NCBI GenBank assembly: GCA_951406725.2
Contig: OX597827.1
Location: 45,136,001-45,200,000 of the forward strand
DNA length: 64,000 bases
Direction of reading: 5' to 3'
Origin: Octopus vulgaris
Lineage: Eukaryota
Shown here: positions 9,001-53,431 of the stretch, piece by piece
How the letters are laid out: every line of letters starts with the position of its first letter
How positions within the stretch are numbered: position 1 is the first letter of the stretch
The notes under the pieces: model-generated
What the model was told of the DNA's origin: nothing
The model's database searches: none
What the model saw: only the letters and a program-made list of their open reading frames with translations
Translations under genes and position numbers: made by a program

Positions 9001-10219
9001 GTTAGTTGTTTGACCCTTTTCTAGATGTAATCTTAGATATTTGTATGTACAACGGCAATACCATCCCAGATAAGAGAGCACTACTCCATGGTAGGTCTGG
9101 CGCGAGTCTTGTAAAGCTGTTGCAGACTGAAGTTTCTTCCGGCGTTGTTGTTGTTGTTAAGCAACAAGACGGGTAAGGGTGATTAGGTGATGGTCTAGGC
9201 TTAGGGGCGGGAGACCCCAGACCTTGGAAAAAAAACAACTTTGGTCGTCTTGTTGTAGTCGAGGGCTCTTCGTTGACGCCCGACACCGCTGGGAGGTGGC
9301 CCTCGAAGTCGCTAGAAATGGAGATCTCCAGGTCCGAATTCTTGAACGGCTTCTTCCGGCGTTGAAGAGAGGGGCCAGTCATTGGAAGAAAACTCTTGTT
9401 ATGGACAGAAACAGTTTTTACTATAAACTTCCGCACGATTTCTGTCTATTAAATATTCTTCACAAGGCTTTGATTGACTCGTGGGTTATGTAAGGTGCCG
9501 TGATGTAGGATCGTGACCAAAGTTCCCGAAACTCTAATCCTAACTTAACCACACAACCCTACCTGCATACAGGGGGAAAACCTAGTCAAACCGAACAGTT
9601 ATTAAAGGTATGCCAGCCGTGACCATCTAGCATATTTGAGGCTGACCTAGGGTCAAACGACTTCGTTAACGCCGCCGCCGCCGCCGCCACCGCCACCGCT
9701 ACCACCACCACCACCACCACCACCACCACCACCACCACTGTATGGTGAGGAGTGTATGAGCCGCACACTGGCGTACGAGTGGTTCAGACGTTTCCAAGAT
9801 GAACGATACGAATTCTCTGCTCAACTTTATCTGTGACGGTCAATGCAACGATCACACGCTACACATCTTCCTTCTAAGCACGGTTGTAAGCAGCAGAAGT
9901 GAGCTAGAACGTTGAAACTTAGTGTGCATGCATAGCAGCCTTTAAGGTCAATCTGTGCGAAGCGGCTTTATTGTGCGTGCCTTAGCTTCGTTACTATGCC
10001 AACAGTCAGGATACTTATTGATTTGACCATGTACACACAGATATCTCAACAGATCACAAGTCATATATTTTTGTAGTAACTCAACTACTACTGCTGCCCC
10101 CAACCCCTCACCTCTATTTTAAGAGTTTCAAAACTGTAATATAAAACATGTTATGGATATTTTATACTAATTTATTAATATTATTTTAAGATGAAATTTG
10201 TATTTCCCCCCTTAAACAG

Positions 10220-10435
10220 GATGTCATGAAAGAATTCAAAAAGCATCATCTTCTGAAAACCAGCCATTCGAGGGACAAGCTACCAGGGGTTATGTTATTA
10301 ACTCCTTGAAAGTACTTAGGCAAATTTCTTCGCAAGAATGTCTCCCCAATGTAATGTATGGGTATACGCTCACATCATGGTGGGTGAAAAAGGGATGCAT
10401 TGCAAAGTTTAAAATAGAAGAATGTCATCTTGCCG
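10220..10435 (+). CDS. Exon 2, lectin domain 1 (ADEL/DUF3011-like)
   Basis: Acceptor ttccccccttaaacag|, donor GCCG|GTAAGT, 216 nt, phase 1-1, open: GCHERIQKASSSENQPFEGQATRGYVINSLKVLRQISSQECLPNVMYGYTLTSWWVKKGCIAKFKIEECHLA; Q-x-S-x(2-3)-C...GY...WVxxGCxAxF motif as in Aplysia egg/gonad lectins. Confidence 0.9.
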
Positions 10436-14507: not shown

Positions 14508-14739
14508 GTATGTATGTATGCATATATATGTATATATATATATACATACATAAATACATACATACATACAAGCATGCATATATGCATGCACACACACACG
14601 CACGCACACACACACATACACACACACAGAGTGACACACACACATAGTCACACACACACTCACGGTTGACGAGCGAACGACACATTAAGTTGTATAGAGC
14701 CGGATGAAGATGTCATTAAATAAGTAATATATATATATC

Positions 14740-16685
14740 GTTACCTGACTTGTCGTCCGATGTCACTTTGTCCACCACTTCGTCCACGTCTTTTCGCCCG
14801 ACGTCTTTTTGTCCAACGACTTTTTGTCCAATTTTAAATAAGCTCTTTAGAAAACAAGGTGAACATGAATTCATTGAGAATTTCATTGATAAAATTCAAA
14901 TAAAATACTGAGGGGAAAATATATTTAAAAAAAGTCATTTAAAAAAAAGTAATAAGATATAACTAATGATTTATTATGATCACTTAAATTATGTGTCACA
15001 CTCTTCAAAAAAATCAATTTTTCTTGTTGACCCATATCCAATGACCAATCTTTTGAGGCGTTCAGTAATTCTTCGATATCGTGTACATGAATTTGATGAA
15101 TCTCTTTGAAGAATTTGAGCCTTTTTACCTCTTCCTTCAAGAGTTTTGATGAGTTTCCAAATATTCAAATGTGCTCCATCCGCCGAACGCTTTATCGCAG
15201 AATGAAACCCCTCCGCAGCATTATTTATTCTGGGAAGGTCTTGAAGAATACGCTGATTAACATTCCATACAGCTATCGGGAATGTAGGGGGTTCTCTCCT
15301 TCGTCTCTCACAACGTCTATGTAACTCAAGTCGCAGTAAGCCATGAATTCAGTAGGTAGTTCTTCATCGCGTATTAATTCTTCATAGACCTCTTCGACTT
15401 CTTCAACGAGTAGGAAGGCTAATGCTGAAAAACATCGAATTTTAAGACAGAATTCAGAGTCTTTATTGTATTTTTCTTTGGGGCCTGAATCTGTGATTGG
15501 CTCAAATGAATCAAGCATGCCACGGTAGATGAAATAGGGAATGATGAATTAAATGCCTTATGAACTGCAACTTCGAAATCTGCCATGAGAGCAAGCGGAT
15601 ATGCATTGGGTTGCATAATTTTCAATTGCTCGAAAAATAATTAATATATCTGCTTTGTTTTATTCGCTAGTAATACAAAGAGCCGTGGAAAACTGCTACC
15701 TTTAATTTGTACATGAATGGTAAACAGTTGAAACCACTGTTCTGGGACAATTTTGAACGTTCCATCACATACCCAATGACGATATGAAGCTATATCCTGA
15801 AGAGAACTTTCTGATGCAAATGATAGCATGCGCTGTTGATCCTCGAAACCCGAATCGTATCTCAGAAACTGTTCGCCATTATCAAGTTTATAATATTCTT
15901 CAGGTATTTCAAAACCAGTTCTAGCCCCTGGATTAGCGGGAAATCTAGAATTTGTTTTGTCTGCACCTTTGAATAGACCTTGAAAGTACAGGTAAACGAG
16001 GAAGTTGAGAGCAATTATTTTATATTAGTTGCGTAAACTTAGCCGCTATTATGCTACGCGAACTTTCTGCTATGTTTTCCACCGCTTCATGCTTTATTTC
16101 TGCAACTGCTTTTCTAGCATTTAACGAATCTACGTCAGCTGGATGAAGGTGCTCACTAGAAAAATAATTTTCGGCTCCTTGTTTCCCGTTACCGTGTGAA
16201 TTCGCACTGAACACAGCCTTCTTCTCTCACATCTCCAGCATTCTTTTCCTAGTTTTGTATTGCTTAAATGAAAGTCGTAGAAGTGATTACTTTCATCAAC
16301 CACTTTTCTTTTGTTTTTGGCCTATGCTATGAACGTTGTCATTTCGGAATGGATAAATTAAAAATATGTAAACTAAATTTGCAGCACACTCTATACACAG
16401 CACCGTTCTTAAGAGAAAGAAGGAAAAAGAGAAAGTAAAACTGTTAACAGAGAAGGAAAAAGAACGATAATAACAATCCTATAACGTGGCTCGTTATAGT
16501 CCTGTGAATATAGCACCAGAGATATTTCACCTTGTATTCTAAAGAGCTTATTTAAAATTGGACAAAACGTCGTTGGAGAAAAAGAATCACCGGACAAAAA
16601 GACGTCGGACGAAAAGACGTAGACGAAGTGACGTTGGACGAAGTGACGTTGGACGAAGTGACGCCGAACGAAAAGTCATAGCTAT
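14740..16685 (-). mobile_element. Mutator-like (FLYWCH-MULE) DNA transposon, decayed
   Basis: Long TIRs with internal subrepeats (about 14746-14864 vs 16526-16678); WVCDGTFKIVPEQWFQLFTIH and LMADFEVAV..ACLIHLSQ MULE motifs in broken ORFs 16214-14925. Confidence 0.9.
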
Positions 16686-17354
16686 ATATATACATATACA
16701 CTCACACACACTCAATTCTCAACGTTTCGTCTATGATATACTTCCCCTACCTTTATCTATTTTGCTATTTGCCCCATTACTCTCATGAAAGATATGCATA
16801 AAATAATCTCTCTCTTTCCCAACCGCTCTTTTTTAGATAGCGTGTTAGCACTATCACAAACCTGTGTGCGCGGGCGGTTGAAAAATTTTCTATGTTCTAT
16901 GATCATTCAGGTTTTCTGGGTTATTGATTATTTGCTAAATGGCTTCTGGTCTTGATGCCAATATGTTCATAGAGTTTCGGTTCAAATAAATATTCGTGCA
17001 ATACATTAAACCTTCAATGTTTAGGATATTCCACGATTCGACATTGAATGATATTGCGGGCTGCGGCGGGGGATGAAGGCGATGTTTAAGTAAGTGTCAG
17101 TCGCTGTAAATGAATGGGATATAGCTTTCCCTTAGGATAGGATGATGTGTGACCTGCATAATCAGCTTTCCTAAATGGATTTGTACGAATAAGGCGTATG
17201 AGTGGCTGTGTGGTAAGAAGCTTTCTTTCCAACCACATGGTTCCAGGTTCAGTCCCACTGCGTGGCACCTTGGGCAAGTGTTTTCTACTATAGCCTCGGG
17301 CCGACCAAAGCCTTGTGAGTGGATCTGGGAGATGGAAACTGAAAGAAGCCTGTC

Positions 17355-17541
<187 letters not shown>

Positions 17542-17551
17542 CATATATATA

Positions 17552-18639
17552 TAATACAATAAAATAAAATACAATAAAAATGGTAAATAATTTTCCTGTG
17601 GTTTTTCATGTAACCAACAATTATTTACCGGTAAATTTCGGTATGTAAATACGACAAAATAATTGTCAAGACCTTTGTAAGGTTCAGTATATAGTAAAGA
17701 AAAATAAGTTGGCTAGCAGCAAGCTGTTTCGCCTCATACCGAAGGAATTAGAAATGGCAGTCAAAGACCAATTTTTTCCATTTCTATAAGTGGAGATTCC
17801 AAAAACGAAGGCCCTTGGGTCTCACATACACAAAACCGGAGTGGCAAATATACGAATTCAGTCACTTACCGTTAATAGCGAACACGGTGTTTCTGGATCA
17901 CAAACATATAAAAAAAGGGGAGTTTGAATTCCGTCATCAGCGCTATATTCGACAGCTTTATCAAATGCCACCAGCCCTCACTACTGACCCAGCGACATCA
18001 GATAGTGGGGGGAAGTGCGCAGATGTTAAAACCAAGTAACGACTGGGAACGTAAACTTTCCCTCCAAAATTCTGCCATGCGCGCCTTCTGGGTAATCGTA
18101 ATGGAATGAGGAATCCACATGGTAATACAATAAAAATGGTAAATAATTTTCCTGTGGTTTTTCATGTAACCAACAATTATTTACCGGTAAATTTCGGTAT
18201 GTAAATACGACAAAATAATTGTCAAGACCTTTGTAAGGTTCAGTATATAGTAAAGAAAAATAAGTTGGCTAGCAGCAAGCTGTTTCGCCTCATACCGAAG
18301 GAATTAGAAATGGCAGTCAAAGACCGTTTTTTCCATTTCTATAAGTGGAGATTCCAAAAACGAAGGCCCTTGGGGCTCACATACACAAAACCGGAGTGGC
18401 AAATATACGAATTCAGTCACTTACCGTTAATAGCGAACACGGTGTTTCTGGATCGCTATTAACGGTAAGTGACTGAATTCGTATATTTGCCACTCCGGTT
18501 TTGTGTATGTGAGCCCCAAGGGCCTTCGTTTTTGGAATCTCCACTTATAGAAATGGAAAAAACGGTCTTTGACTGCCATTTCTAATTCCTTCGGTATGAG
18601 GCGAAACAGCTTGCTGCTAGCCAACTTATTTTTCTTTAC
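17552..18639 (-). mobile_element. Penelope-like / retrozyme-like non-autonomous element: tandem pseudo-LTR plus inverted copy
   Basis: Direct repeats 17568-17899 and 18124-18454 (offset 555-556); perfect inverted arm 18453-18639; hammerhead; 55-aa minus ORF 18165-17998 ending AEFWRESLRSQSLLGFN resembling a GIY-YIG C-terminus; inserted in (TA)n. Confidence 0.7.
17875..17946 (-). ncRNA. Type I hammerhead ribozyme motif (intact core)
   Basis: Minus strand: AUAGCG-CUGAUGA-C-GGA..CAAAC-loop-GUUUG..UCC-A-GAAA-CAC-C-GUG-UU^CGCUAU; 6-bp helix I, paired helix II, minimal near-palindromic helix III, NUH = GUU; predicted cut between 17881 and 17880. Confidence 0.8.
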
Positions 18640-18644
18640 ATATA

Positions 18645-18680
<36 letters not shown>

Positions 18681-19814
18681 TGTATGTATGTATGTATGTA
18701 TGTATGTATTTGTGTGTTTGCGTTTGTTCGCCCCACTATTGCTTGACAACTGGTGTTGGTGTGTTTATGTCCCCATAACCTAGCGGTTCGGCAAAAGACA
18801 ACCGATAGACTAAGTACTAGGCTTACAAAGAATAAGTCCTGGGATCGATTTGTTCGACTAAAGGTGGTGCTCCAGCTTGGCCGCAGTTCAAATGGCCGAA
18901 ACAAGTAGAAGAATGAAATAATACAAATGAAATGAAAAGCAAAATGGATTCGAAGTTTCTTAATTGGGAGGTTCATCAAAATGAACCTCCCAATTTAATG
19001 GAATTCGGAATTTAAGAATTTAGGACTGATATCTTAATTGCCACTCGACTAAAGAAACTGGCACTCCGTCGGTTGCGACGACGAGGGTTCCAGTCGATCC
19101 GATCAACGGATCAATTTGTTCGTGAAATTAATGTGCAAGTGGCCGAGCACTCCACAGACACGTGTACCCTTAACGTATTTCTCGGCGAGATTCAGCGTGA
19201 AACAGAGGCCGGCCCTTTGAAATACAGGTACTACCCATTTTTGCCAGCTAAGTAGACTAGTGAAGTAGACTAGTGAAGTAGACAACTAAGTAGACTAGTG
19301 GACTAACGTGAAGTGAAGTGTCTTGCTCAAGGGCACGACTTGTCGCTGGGAATCGAACTCACAACCTTACGATTGTGAGCCGAATAGCCTAACCACTAAG
19401 TCACGTACCCTCACCGCCACTTAATTAGATTAGAATTAATTGCCGAATTCCGCACTTTCTGCCATTGTTGTCGTTCTGTGTAGCATAAACATGTGGTATA
19501 AGCATCACTATCTTTCAAAATCCTGCTGCATTCCACATGGAATTTTTGGTCATCCAAAGTCGTCTTGGAGTATAAGTCGACCCACCATTTTTTGGCTGTA
19601 AATTTTAGCTTGAAAAAGTCGACTTGTATGCCGGAAAATACGAGAGCTAATTGGTCTTTTATATTTGACAATTCCCAATTGTTCCCTTGACCATTCTTGA
19701 ACTTTTGACTTTAAATGGGGGAAGCTGTGATTATGCTTGCAAAGACGATAGATATTATTTATATTCATGTTTGGAATTATCTTTTGAAACCTCCGTCATT
19801 GTTCTGTGATTCAG

Positions 19815-20042
19815 ATTGTGTCATACGTACTCGATCAGGGAGCAATCCTTATTTCGTCCTCACTTTCCACCCTGCGACACCGGGCTTTCGTATAAAACTT
19901 GTTAGTCTATGGAAGCAGACATCCTACCACCCCTGCCGGCCTGGTTCCACTTTATTCTACAATGAAACGATGTGGTGGCTTGACAAAGGATGCGAGGGCA
20001 GGTTTCAAATTCTTGAATGCCCCTTACTTCCGATCGATTACG
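19815..20042 (+). CDS. Exon 3, lectin domain 2 (ADEL/DUF3011-like)
   Basis: Acceptor gattcag|, donor TACG|GTAAGT, 228 nt, phase 1-1: DCVIRTRSGSNPYFVLTFHPATPGFRIKLVSLWKQTSYHPCRPGSTLFYNETMWWLDKGCEGRFQILECPLLPIDY; four Cys aligned with exon 2; NET sequon. Confidence 0.9.
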
Positions 20043-20073
20043 GTAAGTTTTTGGCTCTTTATATACATATAAA

Positions 20074-20545
<472 letters not shown>

Positions 20546-21670: not shown

Positions 21671-22218
21671 TTGGGTTGTCCGGAAAGTTCGTGCCGATTT
21701 ATAGTAGCTTATCTTTCGACTTATTTTAGAACATGGTTGTGGCCATAAAATAGGATTTGACTACACCTCCATTTAGAGCATAGTTTAAGCTATCTTTTCG
21801 TGGAAGAAGGTTTATGTTCCTATAACCTGTGTTAATTCTGTAACCCTTTAAAATGGAAGATAAGAAAGTTCATTTTCGGCACTTGATGCTTTGGGAACCA
21901 AACAAAAATTGCTGCAGCTCGGCTGGAATGTGTTACTCCACCCTCCATATTCACCAGATATTGCTCCTTCGGATTTCCACTTACCAGGTCTCTACAGAAT
22001 AGTCTTAATGGTAAAAATTTCAATTCCTTGGATGATGTAAATTCTTTGCCACGAAACCACCTCATTTCTGGGAAGAGGGTATTTTCAAGTTAAAGGAAAG
22101 ATGGAGATGCATTGTGCAACAAAATGGCTCATATTTGGTTGATTAAAAATGTAATGGCAAGTATTTATTGACCTGTTTCTTTCCTTTAAAAATCGGCAAG
22201 AACTTTCCGGACAACCAA
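21671..22218 (+). mobile_element. Internally deleted mariner
   Basis: TIRs ttgggttgtccggaaagttc / gaactttccggacaaccaa, TA flanks; MEDKKVHFRHLMLW joined to LGWNVLLHPPYSPDIAPSDFHL. Confidence 0.9.
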
Positions 22219-23084
22219 TAAGTTCCAAGACTTAAACCACAAAAGAAAATTTTAATAGCACGATTTTGTGAGTTATTAAATGCGTCCTTGGTGATGTAGT
22301 GTGTGTATGTATGTATGTCATTGTTCAGTTTTATTTCAAGATTTCTTGCCAATAGGGAAAGAGTTGGTTTCTAACCTCGATCCAAGGCTTCTTCATTGAA
22401 ATGTCAACATCAACATCAACAGCAGGGTATTTTTGCTTGTGTGTATGAATGTATGTATGTATGTACAGATTTGTATGTTTTTTATGTATGTATTCTCATG
22501 CATATAGTTACATATCTAGATATTCTCATATATATTTAATTGATAAATGTCTGGAAAGTTGTACTTCTATGTATGTATGTATGTATGTATGTATGTATGT
22601 ATGTATGTATGTATGTATGTATGTATGTATGTATGTATGTATGTATGTATGTATGTATGTATGTATGTATGTATGTATGTATGTATGTATGTATGTATGT
22701 ATGTATGTATGTACGTACGTACGTACGTGTGTGTGTGTGTGTGTGTTTTGAATAGGATTTGATGCAAATTTTGACAACCGATGTTGACTTTTTTTAACAT
22801 TTCATGTGAATCATTCGATCAGATCCTATTCAAAACATATACTACTCTGAGCCATGAACTCCCTATAAAAATAAGGCAATCTTCAAACACTAGCCAGTAG
22901 CAAGACATCTGCGACATAAGCCACATCTTATACCTTTGGATAATGGAACATTAAATTAAACATCCAATATATATTCTTATTTTTATTCGTATATTTCCCT
23001 TTATACCTCCTGTATCTCTCCCTTTCCAAAATAACTTCTGATATTGAACTCTAGCAATTTTCTTCTATCTAACTCTCTCATATC

Positions 23085-23268: not shown

Positions 23269-23544
23269 ATGTATGTATGTATGTATGTATGAATGTATGT
23301 ATGTATGTATATATACATTTTCTTTCTCTCTCAGTCTCTCCCTCTCTTTCTTTCTCCTTCTGTTACTAGTTTCAGCTTGAGGCAGTATTTATTTTTGGTT
23401 TTCTTTATCGTTGCCTTTTTCCAACACTCGACATAAACCCCACTGCCCACCTACTGTTTCTGAGCTTCGTATTCATAATATCATCCGTCTGTCGCTCATT
23501 TGGCAAATATATAAATAATCGTCATTATTGTATTTTTCCAACAG

Positions 23545-23867
23545 CCTTGACACCAACTGAAGCGCCCGGAGGGAGTCTGGAAGTAAACGAAAATCACAAG
23601 AGCAACAGGAAGCATTTTAAATTCGACGCCGACACTATATCCCCGGGCTATTACCCGAGCGAAAGAAGGAAAACCGCACAAGAGAGGAGAGGCAACGATC
23701 GAAAACAACAAACACACGAAGTAGAAGCTTCCGGTAACGTTCATCCACTTACAATGGAGAAGAGTGACACAACCACTGCCAGCCGTCATGAAGGCAACAG
23801 CTCTCCAGCACTATTGATCACGACGTTGTTGTTAGTTGTCGCCCTTGGAATACATATGCTTCTGTAA
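23545..23867 (+). CDS. Exon 4: hydrophilic linker and C-terminal GPI-anchor-like signal
   Basis: Acceptor tatttttccaacag|, phase 1; ends ...RHEGNSSPALLITTLLLVVALGIHMLL-TAA (23865-23867) with no cytoplasmic tail; AATAAA at about 23926 and 23934; four exons sum to 924 nt = 307 aa + stop. Confidence 0.85.
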
Positions 23868-27940: not shown

Positions 27941-29253
27941 TTGGGTTGGCAACTAAGTTCTCACCGTTTGTATTTTTTTAATTTTAAAGTTTTTAAAAGG
28001 TTCAATAAAAAAGAAATAACAATTAATCAATCAATAATGTATTCATCTTTGTTGTTTACAACTTCTTCCCAACGTTCAACAAGATTTTCAATATCTCGTT
28101 GGTAGAAATCACCCGATTTCGACTCGAAAAATTGATCCAGCCAAGCTCTCAATTCTGCATCAGTATTGAACAAAACATCGCACATAGCATTTGAAAGAGA
28201 TCGAAAGAGGTGGAAATATGTTAGTGCCAAATCAGGTGAGTATGGCGGGTGTGGCAGCACTTCCCAGCCATGCATTTGAATGGCTTCCTTGGTCATACTG
28301 GTGATATGAGGGCGGGCATTGTCATGCAGCAGAAGAACTCCATGCTGCCGATTAGGTCTTTTCTCTTGAATAGCCGTCTTGAGTCGTTCCATCTGTTGAA
28401 CATAGAGTTCCGGGTTGACCGTTTGGTTCCGTTCAAGCAATTCGTAATGGATAATCCATTCCCAGCCCCACCGTACACACAACATCGTTTTACGCGGATG
28501 AAGATCTTGTTTCATGCGCTGTGTTGCTTATTTACCGGGGCTAAGCCATTCCTTACGCTGCTTCATATTGATGTACAGGCACCATTTTTCGTCACCAGTA
28601 ACGGTTCGGTAAAGAAATCGTTGCTTGTGTCCATGAGTTGAGCGGTGACGAGCAAGCAAACCAGCGGAGATTGCGGCTCGTTGATTTTTGTTGTTGTTAC
28701 TTAAAGCATGCGGAACCCATGCTCCATACTTCTGAGCTTTTCCCATCGAATGAAGATGCTTCTCTATAACAGTGTAGGAGCATTCCGTTTTCTCTGCCAG
28801 TTCCCTTGTCGGTTGACGAGAATTTTCGTGTAAAAGTTGATTTAATCGCTCTTCATCGAACTCAACTGGACGGCCGGAACGAGGTGCGTCTTTGAGGTCA
28901 AAATTTCCATTTTGAATTTGGCATACCAATCCCGAGCGGTTCTTTCAGCTATGGCACCTTCTCCATACACAGCACAAATGTCGGAAGCAGCTTTTGCGGC
29001 TTTAGAACCTTGATTAAAAGCAAAAAGAAGGTGGTGTCGAAAATGCTCGTTTTTCTTAACTTGACATTCCATTTTAATGATATGAAAATAAACAAAAATT
29101 AACTAAAATTAACTAGAAAAAAATAAACAACAAAATAGATTCCAAAATGATTCAAAAATAGAATTCTCAGAAAAAAAAAAAAGATTTCAAAATTTAAAAA
29201 CGCAATAAATTCCAAAATTTAAAAAATCGACGGGAACTTAGTTGTCAACCCAA
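27941..29253 (-). mobile_element. Full-length mariner transposon (mellifera-like), transposase pseudogene 29072-28027
   Basis: TIRs ttgggttggcaactaagttc / gaacttagttgtcaacccaa with TA on both sides; WVPHAL, TGDEKW, HDNARPH, HPPYSPDLA motifs; one frameshift, one stop, third catalytic D replaced by Y. Confidence 0.95.
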
Positions 29254-44362: not shown

Positions 44363-45832
44363 GGCGCAGGGGTGGCTGTGTGGTAAGAAGCTTGCTTTCC
44401 AACCACGTGGTTCCGGGTTCATTCCCATTGCATGACACTTTGGGCAAGTGTCTTTTACTATAGCGTCAAGCTGACCAAAGCTTTGTGAGTGGATTTGGTT
44501 GATGGATCTGAAAGAAGCCCTTCATGTATATACAGAGTGCGAGGAGTATTTGAGGACAGTTTTGGTAAACAATAAAACAATTATATTCCAGCATAAATAA
44601 ACATGTATTTGAATAAACTCTTGTGCAATTAGTCTTGATAATGAGTTTTTAAGCAAATTATTCTATGAAATCGCCTTCGGCTTCGATGACTACTTAAATG
44701 CGAGATCGAAACCGCTGGCATGCTGACACTATATAATCCTTATTTATTTCAGACATCACCTGCACAATGGCGGCCTTCAGTGAAGTTATGGTATGATGAG
44801 GATGGCGATTAGTCTCCCTTTCATTAGTGCTCCACACATAGAAGTCCATGGTGTTCAAACCTGGCAAGTTTGAAGGTCACATATTGGGTGTTAAATAATA
44901 GTAAAGATTGTCTGACAACTATTCTTAGGTGACTAGGACCTAGTGAGACGATGCTGAGTCTTGTTTAACATGTATGGCCTTCCATTGCACATTTCATCAA
45001 TCCAGGGTTTGATAACAGTTTCCAGTACCTCAATGTATCCAGCAGCATTAATTCTAAGACCTAGTGGGAAAAAGTGGGGAGACATCACATGACCTTCGCT
45101 ACTCACCACTCCTAAAATCATCCCAGTTGCTTGAAATTTAGTGTGCATCTCTCTGGGTACTTCAGAAGGATCTGCACATAACCACCTGTCCTTTCTTCTG
45201 TTAGACTTTTGATTCTGGTCAAAGATTTTTCGCCAGAGAAAAACCAAAGTATGCCTTGTTCATAAGGGTTTTTCACTTTGTTAAGTAACCGTTTTGAACG
45301 GATGAAACGGTTTTCCTGTGTCTTTGCAGACTCGATTTGGCCGTTCCTCATTACATAGGACTTGTATCGAATGTCACGATGTATCACAGTTCTGACAGTC
45401 CACTCTGACACCTGAAGTTCTTTAGCAATGGACCTCATTGATTTTCTGGAGTTTTCATCGATAACATTTTGAACATATATAAATTCCGGTGTCCTTTTAG
45501 TGTCTGAGCATTGTGAATGTTTTCTCCTCTTTGATACAGGTGAAACATTCCCATCAGATGCCTCTAATTCCAACCAAACTTTGTGTACAAATGATCTTGC
45601 AACATTTAGAAAGCTGCTAATTTCTAAATCACTGTGGTTTGCATGTATGGCATCTATGATTGGATGTCTTTACATTTCTTGAGTTAGCATGATATCTTGA
45701 AATAGTTACCTGAAAAAAAAATTATACACTAAATAATTTGAAGGGGCAATGAACTAAAAATGAAATGTCCTCAAATACTCTTCATAGTATGTCAGTATCA
45801 CGTCACTATGTCAGTACGTAGATACACACACA

Positions 45833-48039: not shown

Positions 48040-49435
48040 ACAACATTATCGAGTGCACATCAACATTACCTGGGCCACTCCAACATTATCTGACACATAG
48101 ACACACTATTTATCGCACACTAACTTTATCTACCATACTCACATACATTGCCTAGGGCATACCGACATTGCTTAGCTCACATCAATATTAAGCAGTACAT
48201 AGCAACATTATCTAGCACACATCAACATTATTTACCGCATACCAATATTATCAAGCGCGTACCAATATCATAAAGTACACGCCAACAATATCTAGCACAG
48301 GCCAAGATTATCTACCGAACATTATTATCTAACACACATCAATGCTACCTACTGCATATCAGCACTGTCGAGGGCACTCCTAGATTATTTAGGGCGAACC
48401 AATATTATCTCGCCAAGACCAACATTATCTAGTACATACCAACATTATTTACCGCACGCCACAATTGCCAATGGTACACTTAGCGCACACAAATATTATC
48501 CGCATATATCAACATTATCTGGCACACATTAACATTGCATAGCGCGTACCAACATTTTCTAATGCACACCAACAATAACTATCACAGGCAAATATCATCC
48601 AGTGAACACTAATATCTAGTGCACATCAATATCATCTAACACACACCAGCATCATCTAGGATACATCAACACTATTTTGCGCAGACCAACAATTATCTTA
48701 CGAACCCCGAACGTATCTTGCACAGACCAACTTTATCTAGTGTATACCAACATTGTCTTGAGCACATCGACATTATCTAGTGAACACCAAGATCATCTTG
48801 CGCAGAGTAACAGTATCCAGTACACATCACCATTATCTACCGCACACAAGCATTATTAACCGTGCACCAACATTATCTAGCACACACCAACTTTATCTAG
48901 CGCACACCAAGATTATCAACCGCACATCAACATTATCATCTGCGCATCAACATTATCTAACGAAACCAACATGATTTAGTGCAAACCAATATTATCTTGC
49001 GTAGCCCAATATTATCTTGCGCAGACCAATATTATCTTGCGCAAACCAATATTATCTTGCGAAGACCAACATTATCTTGCGCAGACCAATAATATCTTGC
49101 TTAGACCAACATTATCTTGCTTAGACCAACAATATCTTGCTTAGACCAACATTATCTTGCGCAGGCCAACATTATCTTGCGCAGACCAATATTATCTTGC
49201 GCAGACCAATATTATCTTGCGCAGACCAACATTATCTTGCGTAGACGAACATTATCTTGTGCAGACCAACATTATCTTGCTTAGACCAACATTATCTTGC
49301 GCAGACCAACATTTTCTTGCGTAGACGAATATTATCTTGCGCAGACCAATATTATCTTGCGCAGACGAACATTATCTTGCGTAGACCAATATTATCTTGC
49401 GCAGACCAACATTATCTTGCGCAGAACAACATTAC
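48040..49435. repeat. 20-bp minisatellite (accaacattatcttgcgcag)
   Basis: Degenerate from 48040, homogeneous 48985-49432. Confidence 0.92.
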
Positions 49436-52585: not shown

Positions 52586-53157
52586 TCAAATTCTCTTCTG
52601 TACCATTTGGTCGTTGACATGCATTTTGTCGTAGATCAAAATCCTGCTAGTTGCCGTACGAGTTGAGCCGGAAAATGTCGACACTGAACGGGTCTCTCTT
52701 CGTGTTAGACTCGGGTGTACCGTGTGCAAACAACGGAAAGCGGAGACAAAAGCCTGGCGGAACTTGTTGTTCATGAAACAATATGTGATTGGGTTGCAAC
52801 ACGAAGATACATAGGCTAGCAGCTGTATGAATGAATGGCTTGTAGGACTAAGTATATCGTTGGCTCCTTTTTCGTCGAAAACAATCCATGTTTGAACGAC
52901 GTATAGCGGCGACCAACAGACAAAAAATTCAAGCACAATGACGAACAACATTCGAATGACGCGGATTTTGGAAGCTCGGCTTTTTTCACTATTAGACTGT
53001 CTCATAGCACGGTTATAATCAAAGCGTTCTTTACTTTTGGTCGTTTGGCGGACGTTGTTTTTCTTCGTTGATGATGACAGTGACGATGACGAGGCGGCCA
53101 TCTTGTTCATCATTGTTTCGGCTTCTTCCTCGACATTTTCGATACCGTTTCTGGCTT
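52586..53157 (-). CDS. CCKR: Terminal coding exon of a cholecystokinin/gastrin/sulfakinin-receptor-like rhodopsin GPCR (ICL3, TM6, TM7, C-tail)
   Basis: KIRVIRMLFVIVLEFFVCWSPLY (CWxP) and SFIQLLAYVSSCCNPITYCFMNNKFRQAF (NPxxY) closely resemble CCK-type receptors; acceptor ttgtatttttcag| at 53158-53160, phase 1; no upstream exons recognised within the window. Confidence 0.88.
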
Positions 53158-53431
53158 CTGAAAAATACAATTAATGAAAAAAAGTTATGAAAGAATGTGA
53201 ATGAATATACGGTGTAGTAATTAGTGTTTTCATTGAACAAAACGATAGATGACCGAAACCATAAAATAACTATCGGAACGCTGACGGTTGGTTATCCAAA
53301 ATACAGAAAAATTCGAAATGTGCATGGTCGATCTCATCTGATGACCCCTGCCCACCAAGACATATAAAGAAAAATGGCATGAGGCACCGATTGATACGAT
53401 CTGAGGTACTCATACATATATCCGTGATAAC

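What the first reader, a model, noticed from the sequence alone, without database searches (positions are those of the whole stretch)
18250..18639. Perfect 187-bp palindrome whose inverted arm starts at the predicted ribozyme cleavage site
Seen: arms 18250-18436 and 18453-18639 are exact reverse complements around a 16-nt spacer and carry the variants of the second direct copy, not the first. The right arm begins (T)CGCTATTAACGG; its C at 18454 is the first base of the predicted hammerhead 3' cleavage product, within a 2-nt TC microhomology. Inference: the junction may be a genomic fossil of reverse transcription ending at a self-cleaved RNA 5' end, which would be indirect evidence of in vivo ribozyme activity. 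In the host pre-mRNA it forms a long dsRNA stem (ADAR/Dicer substrate) that also masks a sense ACG|GTAAGT donor at 18465.
Basis: partly seen in the sequence, partly recalled or inferred. Interest (0 to 1): 0.7.

Follow-up and report, generated by a model that had tools for sequence, protein, structure and literature searches.

The report
Penelope-type insertion with folded-back copy
An octopus intron holds a small ribozyme-bearing jumping element with a perfect back-to-front copy of its own end, a layout typical of Penelope-like elements that likely arose when the new DNA copy folded back on itself; the fold point falls on the predicted ribozyme cut site, but one case cannot show that cutting caused it.

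Summary
The palindrome is exactly as described. It is the 5' end of a 1.09-kb insertion: 1.6 tandem units of a non-coding 555-bp element (minus strand, one complete minimal type I hammerhead) plus a head-to-head inverted copy. It sits in the (TA)n tract of a SINE in intron 2 of an Octopus DUF3011 gene. Two direct repeats plus an adjacent shorter inverted copy is the published Penelope-like (PLE) layout, also made by Naiads, which lack canonical hammerheads. The TC microhomology does straddle the predicted scissile bond (3 of 555 positions by chance). But the direct copy reads 19 nt through that bond, and GA at 18435 is the nearest partner for its 3' TC: a cDNA snap-back signature. The 'second-copy variants' are family-majority alleles, so they do not identify the template. 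In contigs of 4 runs, no listed joint or shown loose end lies at the cut site; contigs cannot show absence. Verdict: new member of a known kind; cleavage-linked inversion stays open at about 25% and is cheap to test genome-wide.

The parts
17191..17356 (+). 5' half of a SINE-like repeat (A- and B-box-like head) interrupted by the insertion
   Evidence: aligns to uninterrupted copy 20072-20537; head sequence; 'SINE' label from recalled features
17356..17552 (.). (TA)n/(TATG)n target tract, left part
17553..17567 (-). 15-nt duplication of the element 3' end, likely repeated priming at the start of reverse transcription
   Evidence: mechanism inferred
17568..17899 (-). direct copy 1 (3' pseudo-LTR-like repeat, 332 bp), with private alleles at 17770/17771 and 17820
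17875..17946 (-). only complete minimal type I hammerhead motif; predicted cut 17881|17880; C.A at 10.1/11.1; near-palindromic stem III
   Evidence: activity untested
17900..18123 (-). single-copy part of the 555-bp unit
18124..18454 (-). direct copy 2 (331 bp), 5'-truncated inside hammerhead stem II, 19 nt upstream of the scissile bond
18250..18436 (+). left arm of the palindrome (part of copy 2)
18437..18452 (+). 16-nt spacer (stem III, GAAA and part of stem II, antisense)
18453..18454 (+). TC microhomology at the inversion junction; equals U17 and C1.1 of the hammerhead
18453..18639 (+). inverted arm, element sense; ends where the element continues TATATA, joined to (AT)n
18465..18470 (+). 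GTAAGT donor-like site brought into host-sense orientation
   Evidence: use untested
18640..18709 (.). (AT)n/(TATG)n target tract, right part
18710..18904 (+). 3' half of the interrupted SINE-like repeat, in register with the 5' half
10219..10435 (+). host gene exon 2 (DUF3011 protein); exon 1 at about 1714-1870
19815..20042 (+). host gene exon 3; last exon about 23544-23867

Best explanation
The palindrome is the inverted 5' end of an insertion of a non-coding, hammerhead-bearing 555-bp element, likely mobilised by a Penelope-like reverse transcriptase and likely formed by snap-back of the new cDNA rather than by run-off at a ribozyme-cut end. Inferred steps: (1) an endonuclease nicks the (TA)n tract of a SINE; (2) reverse transcription starts at the AT-rich 3' end (17553, with a 15-nt re-priming duplication) and copies 1.6 units of a tandem RNA, reading through the first hammerhead and through the second scissile bond; (3) it stops at 18454, inside stem II; (4) the 3' TC pairs with the nearest GA (18435-18436) and primes 185 nt of DNA-templated synthesis; (5) the new end joins the other side of the TA tract at an internal TATATA. 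The cut-site coincidence is then a by-product of stalling in the structured, palindromic hammerhead region, whose stem III abuts the scissile bond.
For: Shown: layout of two direct repeats plus adjacent shorter head-to-head inverted copy; insertion in a TA tract with both SINE halves in register; no long ORF in the unit (longest stop-free stretch 95 codons); direct copy continues 19 nt past the bond; 18435 is the closest of 11 GA sites listed in the 200 nt behind the end; under nearest-partner snap-back the median loop is 12 nt and 63% of 555 end points give a loop of 16 or less; the arm's far end lies at an internal TATATA next to (AT)n. Published: the same layout is typical of PLEs, with palindromes at head-to-head junctions read as self-priming (PMC3846280, passages); Naiads without canonical hammerheads make it too and prefer (TA)n (PMC8557442, passages and section 15); in vitro a PLE inserts from unprocessed RNA, hammerhead mutants do not alter the product, and no RNA-seq reads start at the cut site (PMC11167929, parts 1-2 of 4); snap-back is a recognised class of R2 5' junctions (PMC11371274, passages). 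In contigs of 4 runs (1152 laid) the one joint listed is 17686/17944, and none of 24 shown loose ends (of 122) lies at 17880-17881.
Against: Only 3 of 555 end points would put the nearest snap-back across the scissile bond, so the model needs a 0.5% coincidence unless RT stalls preferentially in the hammerhead, which I could not test. The 2-bp snap-back is not stable alone (+2.1 to +2.6 kcal/mol against -1.8 for the local MFE) and would need protein help. No autonomous PLE partner was found, so PLE mobilisation is inferred from layout. The contig test is weak: single-copy junctions inside a high-copy family are easily dropped, even this locus's own junction was not seen, 98 loose ends were hidden, and the 17686/17944 joint may be a nested insertion at TATAT rather than a 5' inversion. 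The authors of PMC3846280 argued for self-priming on an antisense RNA template, a different chemistry from cDNA snap-back.
Confidence: 0.62

Rival explanations
1. Cleavage-guided inversion. The RNA was cut at the copy-2 site. Either RT jumped the nick onto the 5' fragment, copied 19 nt and was left with a single-stranded tail that folded back at the nick; or a second cDNA, primed at the internal UAUAUA by the other target strand, ran off a self-cleaved 5' end and was joined through TC. The junction would then record in vivo hammerhead activity.
For: The microhomology straddles U17|C1.1; chance 3 of 555. The motif looks conserved in the family: among the 40 substitutions shown (of 57) the only one inside the CUGANGA/GAAA/GUH core is N7 (17936; runs X6, X13); a related family keeps CUGAAGA with another stem II (loose ends at 17937); 2 of 3 stem III deletions give perfect palindromes, as expected of dimeric minimal hammerheads (PMC4209133, parts 1-2 of 4). 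The nick-and-jump form explains both the short loop and the site. Precedent: R2 5' junction types correlate with ribozyme cut position (PMC3774820, abstract only).
Against: One post-hoc case picked from a large scan. The two-template form needs the direct cDNA to end by chance within 19 nt of the same site. The motif is imperfect (C.A at 10.1/11.1, GUU triplet; ribozyme fold -9.1 against MFE -12.0) and metazoan minimal hammerheads cleave weakly in vitro. Hammerhead-less Naiads invert too. No recurrent joint at the site (weak).
Confidence: 0.25
2. Assembly or library fold-back artefact.
For: Arms are 100% identical; no contig showed this junction.
Against: After the arm the sequence resumes in the right half of the same SINE in register and host exon order is intact; the arm ends at a TA microhomology; copy 1 keeps separate alleles; the layout is the published PLE one. 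Best run held 0.72 of the words, so the runs may lack this insertion.
Confidence: 0.07
3. The inverted arm arose after insertion, by template switching at a stalled fork or during break repair in the TA tract, unrelated to retrotransposition.
For: The same 2-nt microhomology and short loop fit fork-associated fold-back (general knowledge, recalled). Arms show no differences while copy 1 has two private events in the same 187 bp, which fits a younger arm or later homogenisation.
Against: The inversion sits exactly at the element's 5' boundary, where PLEs routinely make it. Two events falling in one of three copies is not unlikely (about 1 in 3).
Confidence: 0.06

Closest known systems
Penelope-like elements (EN+ PLEs): two direct pLTRs plus adjacent inverted 5'-truncated pLTR, e.g. 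Pen2a_Av (PMC3846280; PMC8557442)
   Same: Partial tandem, shorter head-to-head inverted copy at the 5' end, palindrome at the junction, minimal hammerhead in the repeat, AT-rich microsatellite target with no readable target-site duplication, a donor-like site in the repeat.
   Different: No RT or GIY-YIG ORF; unit only 555 bp; no autonomous partner identified; no 30-40 bp tail recognised.
Metazoan non-LTR retrozymes (PMC7229834; bioRxiv 10.64898/2026.07.22.740005)
   Same: Non-coding tandem unit with a type I hammerhead, low GC, dispersed high-copy family; proposed to be non-autonomous PLE derivatives.
   Different: Unit 555 bp against about 150-450 bp; only one complete motif here, so not 'active' by the preprint's two-motif rule; circular RNA untested; inverted 5' copy not mentioned in the passages I saw.
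R2 snap-back 5' junctions (PMC11371274) and R2 HDV-ribozyme-defined 5' ends (PMC3774820)
   Same: cDNA 3' end priming on itself before joining; ribozyme cut site reflected in genomic 5' junctions.
   Different: R2 is a site-specific non-LTR element with an HDV-like ribozyme at the true 5' end; here the direct copy extends past the cut site.

Membership tests
Penelope-like element (autonomous) | ORF with telomerase-like RT and GIY-YIG endonuclease | tested here: not met
   longest stop-free stretch 95 codons in the insertion's direct part
Penelope-like element (non-autonomous derivative) | partial tandem forming pLTR-like direct repeats | tested here: met
   332/331-bp copies, 99% identical
Penelope-like element (non-autonomous derivative) | adjacent inverted 5'-truncated copy, head-to-head | tested here: met
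Penelope-like element (non-autonomous derivative) | minimal type I hammerhead with palindromic stem III in the repeat | tested here: met
   motif scan and pairing; family variation; no Rfam hit; C.A at 10.1/11.1 is atypical
Penelope-like element (non-autonomous derivative) | AT-rich or microsatellite target | tested here: met
   (TA)n on both sides, SINE halves in register
Penelope-like element (non-autonomous derivative) | sequence shared with the pLTR of an autonomous PLE of the same genome | not testable with these tools
   no genome held; another family shares the 3' end up to 17651 (loose ends) but its nature is unknown
Penelope-like element (non-autonomous derivative) | 30-40 bp optional tail at one end | tested here: inconclusive
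   both direct copies end at the same unit position; a 15-nt terminal duplication instead
Non-LTR retrozyme | non-coding tandem units each with a complete type I hammerhead | tested here: not met
   1.6 units, one complete motif at this locus; other loci not seen
Non-LTR retrozyme | self-cleavage and circular RNA expression | not tested
   no RNA run laid; needs bench or raw RNA reads

The most novel reading that the evidence does not exclude
Hammerhead self-cleavage sets the point at which Penelope-type cDNA folds back, so inverted-pLTR junctions are a genome-wide fossil record of in vivo cleavage by minimal hammerheads, and this octopus 555-bp family shows it.
Probability: 0.22. Interest if true: 0.65.

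Novelty: new member of a known kind. Interest (0 to 1): 0.33.

Why it matters
As it stands it is one more PLE-type inverted end, in a hammerhead-bearing octopus family for which my searches found no description. The role of the hammerhead in endonuclease-bearing PLEs is stated to be unclear (PMC8557442) and the one in vitro system found cleavage dispensable (PMC11167929). If inversion points cluster at the scissile bond across copies, that would give in vivo evidence for cleavage and tie it to the unexplained inverted pLTR; the test needs only an assembly. The intronic hairpin is unlikely to matter to the host beyond being an editing or siRNA substrate like other PLE inverted repeats (PMC3681739, passages).

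Tried and rejected
Own-genome search: no genome held, so no census of copies. Exact 21-nt patterns: 0 matches in metagenome contigs, genome contigs, viral contigs. No second copy in the window. Rfam: 0 at gathering; 28 matches at E up to 10, none a hammerhead, the best being miRNA models matching the hairpin far below their cut-offs. Earlier findings: nothing in 3 look-ups. Literature: searches returned no paper whose listing or read passages link PLE inversion points to the hammerhead cut site; the Terminon paper was not held, the Adineta sequence supplement (.fas) was unreadable, bioRxiv supplements were closed, and most older Penelope papers are outside the library, so absence from print is not established. 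Rejected: copy-2 variants as template evidence (family majority); donor masking as a function; a target-site duplication could not be called inside the microsatellite.

Full report
Observation. The arms 18250-18436 and 18453-18639 are exact reverse complements with a 16-nt spacer. They belong to a larger structure. On the minus strand, 18454 down to 17553 is 1.6 tandem units of a 555/556-bp sequence: copies 17568-17899 and 18124-18454 (99% identical, three differing columns) around a 224-bp single-copy part. The right arm is an inverted copy of the first part of copy 2, joined head-to-head through TC at 18453-18454. There is no other copy in the window.

Setting. The insertion splits a SINE-like repeat inside its (TA)n tract: 17191-17356 and 18710-18904 align in order with an uninterrupted copy at 20072-20537. 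It lies in intron 2 of a four-exon + strand gene: exon 3 is 97% identical to Octopus bimaculoides LOC106874738, whose protein maps at about 1714-1870, 10219-10435, 19815-20042 and 23544-23855 and matches DUF3011. The genus is thus Octopus. The unit is held by 20 of 24 listed runs from 10 studies and 4 organism codes, best share 0.72, and 1152 contigs of 4 runs lay on it: a multi-copy family.

Ribozyme. A pattern scan of both strands finds one hammerhead-type motif, minus strand 17946-17875: six-pair stem I, CUGAUGA, a stem II of 3 + 5 pairs around a 3x3 internal loop, GAAA, a 9-nt near-palindromic stem III that self-pairs at -7.4 kcal/mol, and GUU; the predicted cut is 17881|17880. It is imperfect: positions 10.1/11.1 are C.A, and the ribozyme fold (-9.1) is above the MFE (-12.0). 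Rfam does not detect it. Family variation favours a conserved motif: of 40 substitutions shown (57 in all) the only one in the core is at N7; a related family keeps CUGAAGA with another stem II; two of three stem III deletions give perfect palindromes and one breaks it. This matches the dimer-type minimal hammerheads of PLEs, which cleave weakly in vitro (PMC4209133, parts 1-2 of 4 read). Activity was not tested.

The junction. If cDNA ends were uniform over the unit and folded to the nearest 2-nt complement, 3 of 555 end points would do this. Against the literal reading: the direct copy continues 19 nt beyond the bond, so its template was not simply ended there. GA at 18435-18436 is the nearest usable partner of the terminal TC, and a loop of 16 or less is what 63% of end points give under snap-back. 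The arm's far end lies where the element continues TATATA and the flank is (AT)n, which fits either end-joining after snap-back or internal priming by the second target strand.

Variants. At 17820 all depth in all four runs has the copy-2 allele, and the one-base deletion and loose ends at 17770-17772 also give the copy-2 form. Copy 2 and the arm therefore carry family-majority alleles and copy 1 the private ones; the sharing does not identify the template. G17818 is shared by all three copies and absent from the four runs, which fits one source, though it could be a species-level allele.

Other copies. No genome is held and pattern scans found nothing. In one search one joint was listed, opposite strands 17686/17944 in run X3, 64 nt from the bond; its orientation is not given and both ends are near TATA-like sites, so it may be a nested insertion. 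None of the 24 shown loose ends (of 122) is at the bond, and this locus's own junction was not seen. Contigs drop rare junctions, so this only argues against a common, identical junction.

What is known. An inverted 5'-truncated copy next to the upstream pLTR is the typical PLE layout and is made also by Naiads, which lack canonical hammerheads and favour (TA)n (PMC8557442, passages and section 15). Pen2a_Av has two 218-bp direct pLTRs and an adjacent 181-bp inverted one, and palindromes at such junctions were read as self-priming (PMC3846280, passages and part 3 of 5). A purified PLE cuts both strands at AT-rich sites, primes internally and uses unprocessed RNA; hammerhead mutants do not change insertion (PMC11167929, parts 1-2 of 4). 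Snap-back is a described 5' junction class for R2 (PMC11371274, passages), and R2 junction types track ribozyme cut position (PMC3774820, abstract). Non-coding hammerhead repeats are known as retrozymes (PMC7229834, passages) and are proposed to be non-autonomous PLE derivatives (bioRxiv 10.64898/2026.07.22.740005, part 1 of 5 and passages). Octopus vulgaris has recently active PLE families; that paper has no occurrence of 'ribozyme' in its main text (PMC13282606, passages). PMC6431247 (passages) added nothing on inversions.

Mechanism. Most likely (0.62): target-primed reverse transcription in the TA tract, read-through of an uncut tandem RNA, a stop in stem II, snap-back and end-joining. All steps are inferred from layout. 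The coincidence with the cut site then follows from stalling in the structured region, which is untested. Main rival (0.25): the RNA was nicked, RT crossed the nick and the 19-nt tail folded back at it, or a second cDNA ran off a cut end. The nick-and-jump form explains loop and site together and is not excluded. Artefact (0.07) is unlikely because the SINE and the gene resume in register. Post-insertion template switching takes 0.06.

Host effect. The pre-mRNA would form a 187-bp hairpin (-367 kcal/mol for 18240-18650). PLE inverted repeats are known siRNA sources in Drosophila (PMC3681739, passages). But the gene region has 26 other inverted pairs of 50 bp or more, and intron 2 has two other GTAAGT sites outside the hairpin, so neither dsRNA nor a silent donor is special. 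Editing, siRNA and splicing were not tested.

Verdict. Real feature, known kind of structure, probably undescribed small family. The one surprising element, the junction on the scissile bond, is a single case with a good passive explanation and a clear genome-wide test. Interest 0.33.

Noticed in passing
window 17568-17651 (loose ends at 17651, runs X3, X6, X14): 8-9 contigs per run share the element's 3'-terminal ~85 bp and then diverge: another family with the same 3' end, a candidate autonomous partner or sister non-autonomous family.
   Followed up: no
window 17937 and 17945 (loose ends, runs X6, X13, X14): Related families keep the upstream region and a hammerhead-like core (CUGAAGA in X6 and X13) with a different stem II.
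   Followed up: partly
window 17866-17871 (minus strand): A strong donor-like site lies 9 nt downstream of the predicted cut in the element's own sense; PLEs are known to keep introns near the pLTR hammerhead. Splicing not tested.
   Followed up: no
window 17753 (run X3): A contig joins the element near 17738 to a (TA)n tract: another copy with an internal 3' end at an AT-like site.
   Followed up: no
window 1714-23867 (+): Four-exon gene for a protein with two DUF3011-type repeats, an N-terminal hydrophobic stretch and a hydrophobic C-terminus; ortholog of O. bimaculoides LOC106874738.
   Followed up: partly
window 14700-16690 (-): Decayed DNA-transposon-like element in the same intron: inverted ends at 14753-14863 and 16526-16641 and broken transposase-like frames; MULE-like by recall, no Pfam hit for the piece tested.
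   Followed up: partly
window 52586-53170 (-): Last exon of a rhodopsin-family GPCR (7tm_1); resembles CCK-type receptors by recall.
   Followed up: partly
window 21690-22220, 28027-28944, 44933-45669: Mariner/Tc1-like transposase remnants seen in sequence and ORF lists; label from recall.
   Followed up: no
window 48041-49434: Tandem array of about 70 copies of a 20-bp unit.
   Followed up: no
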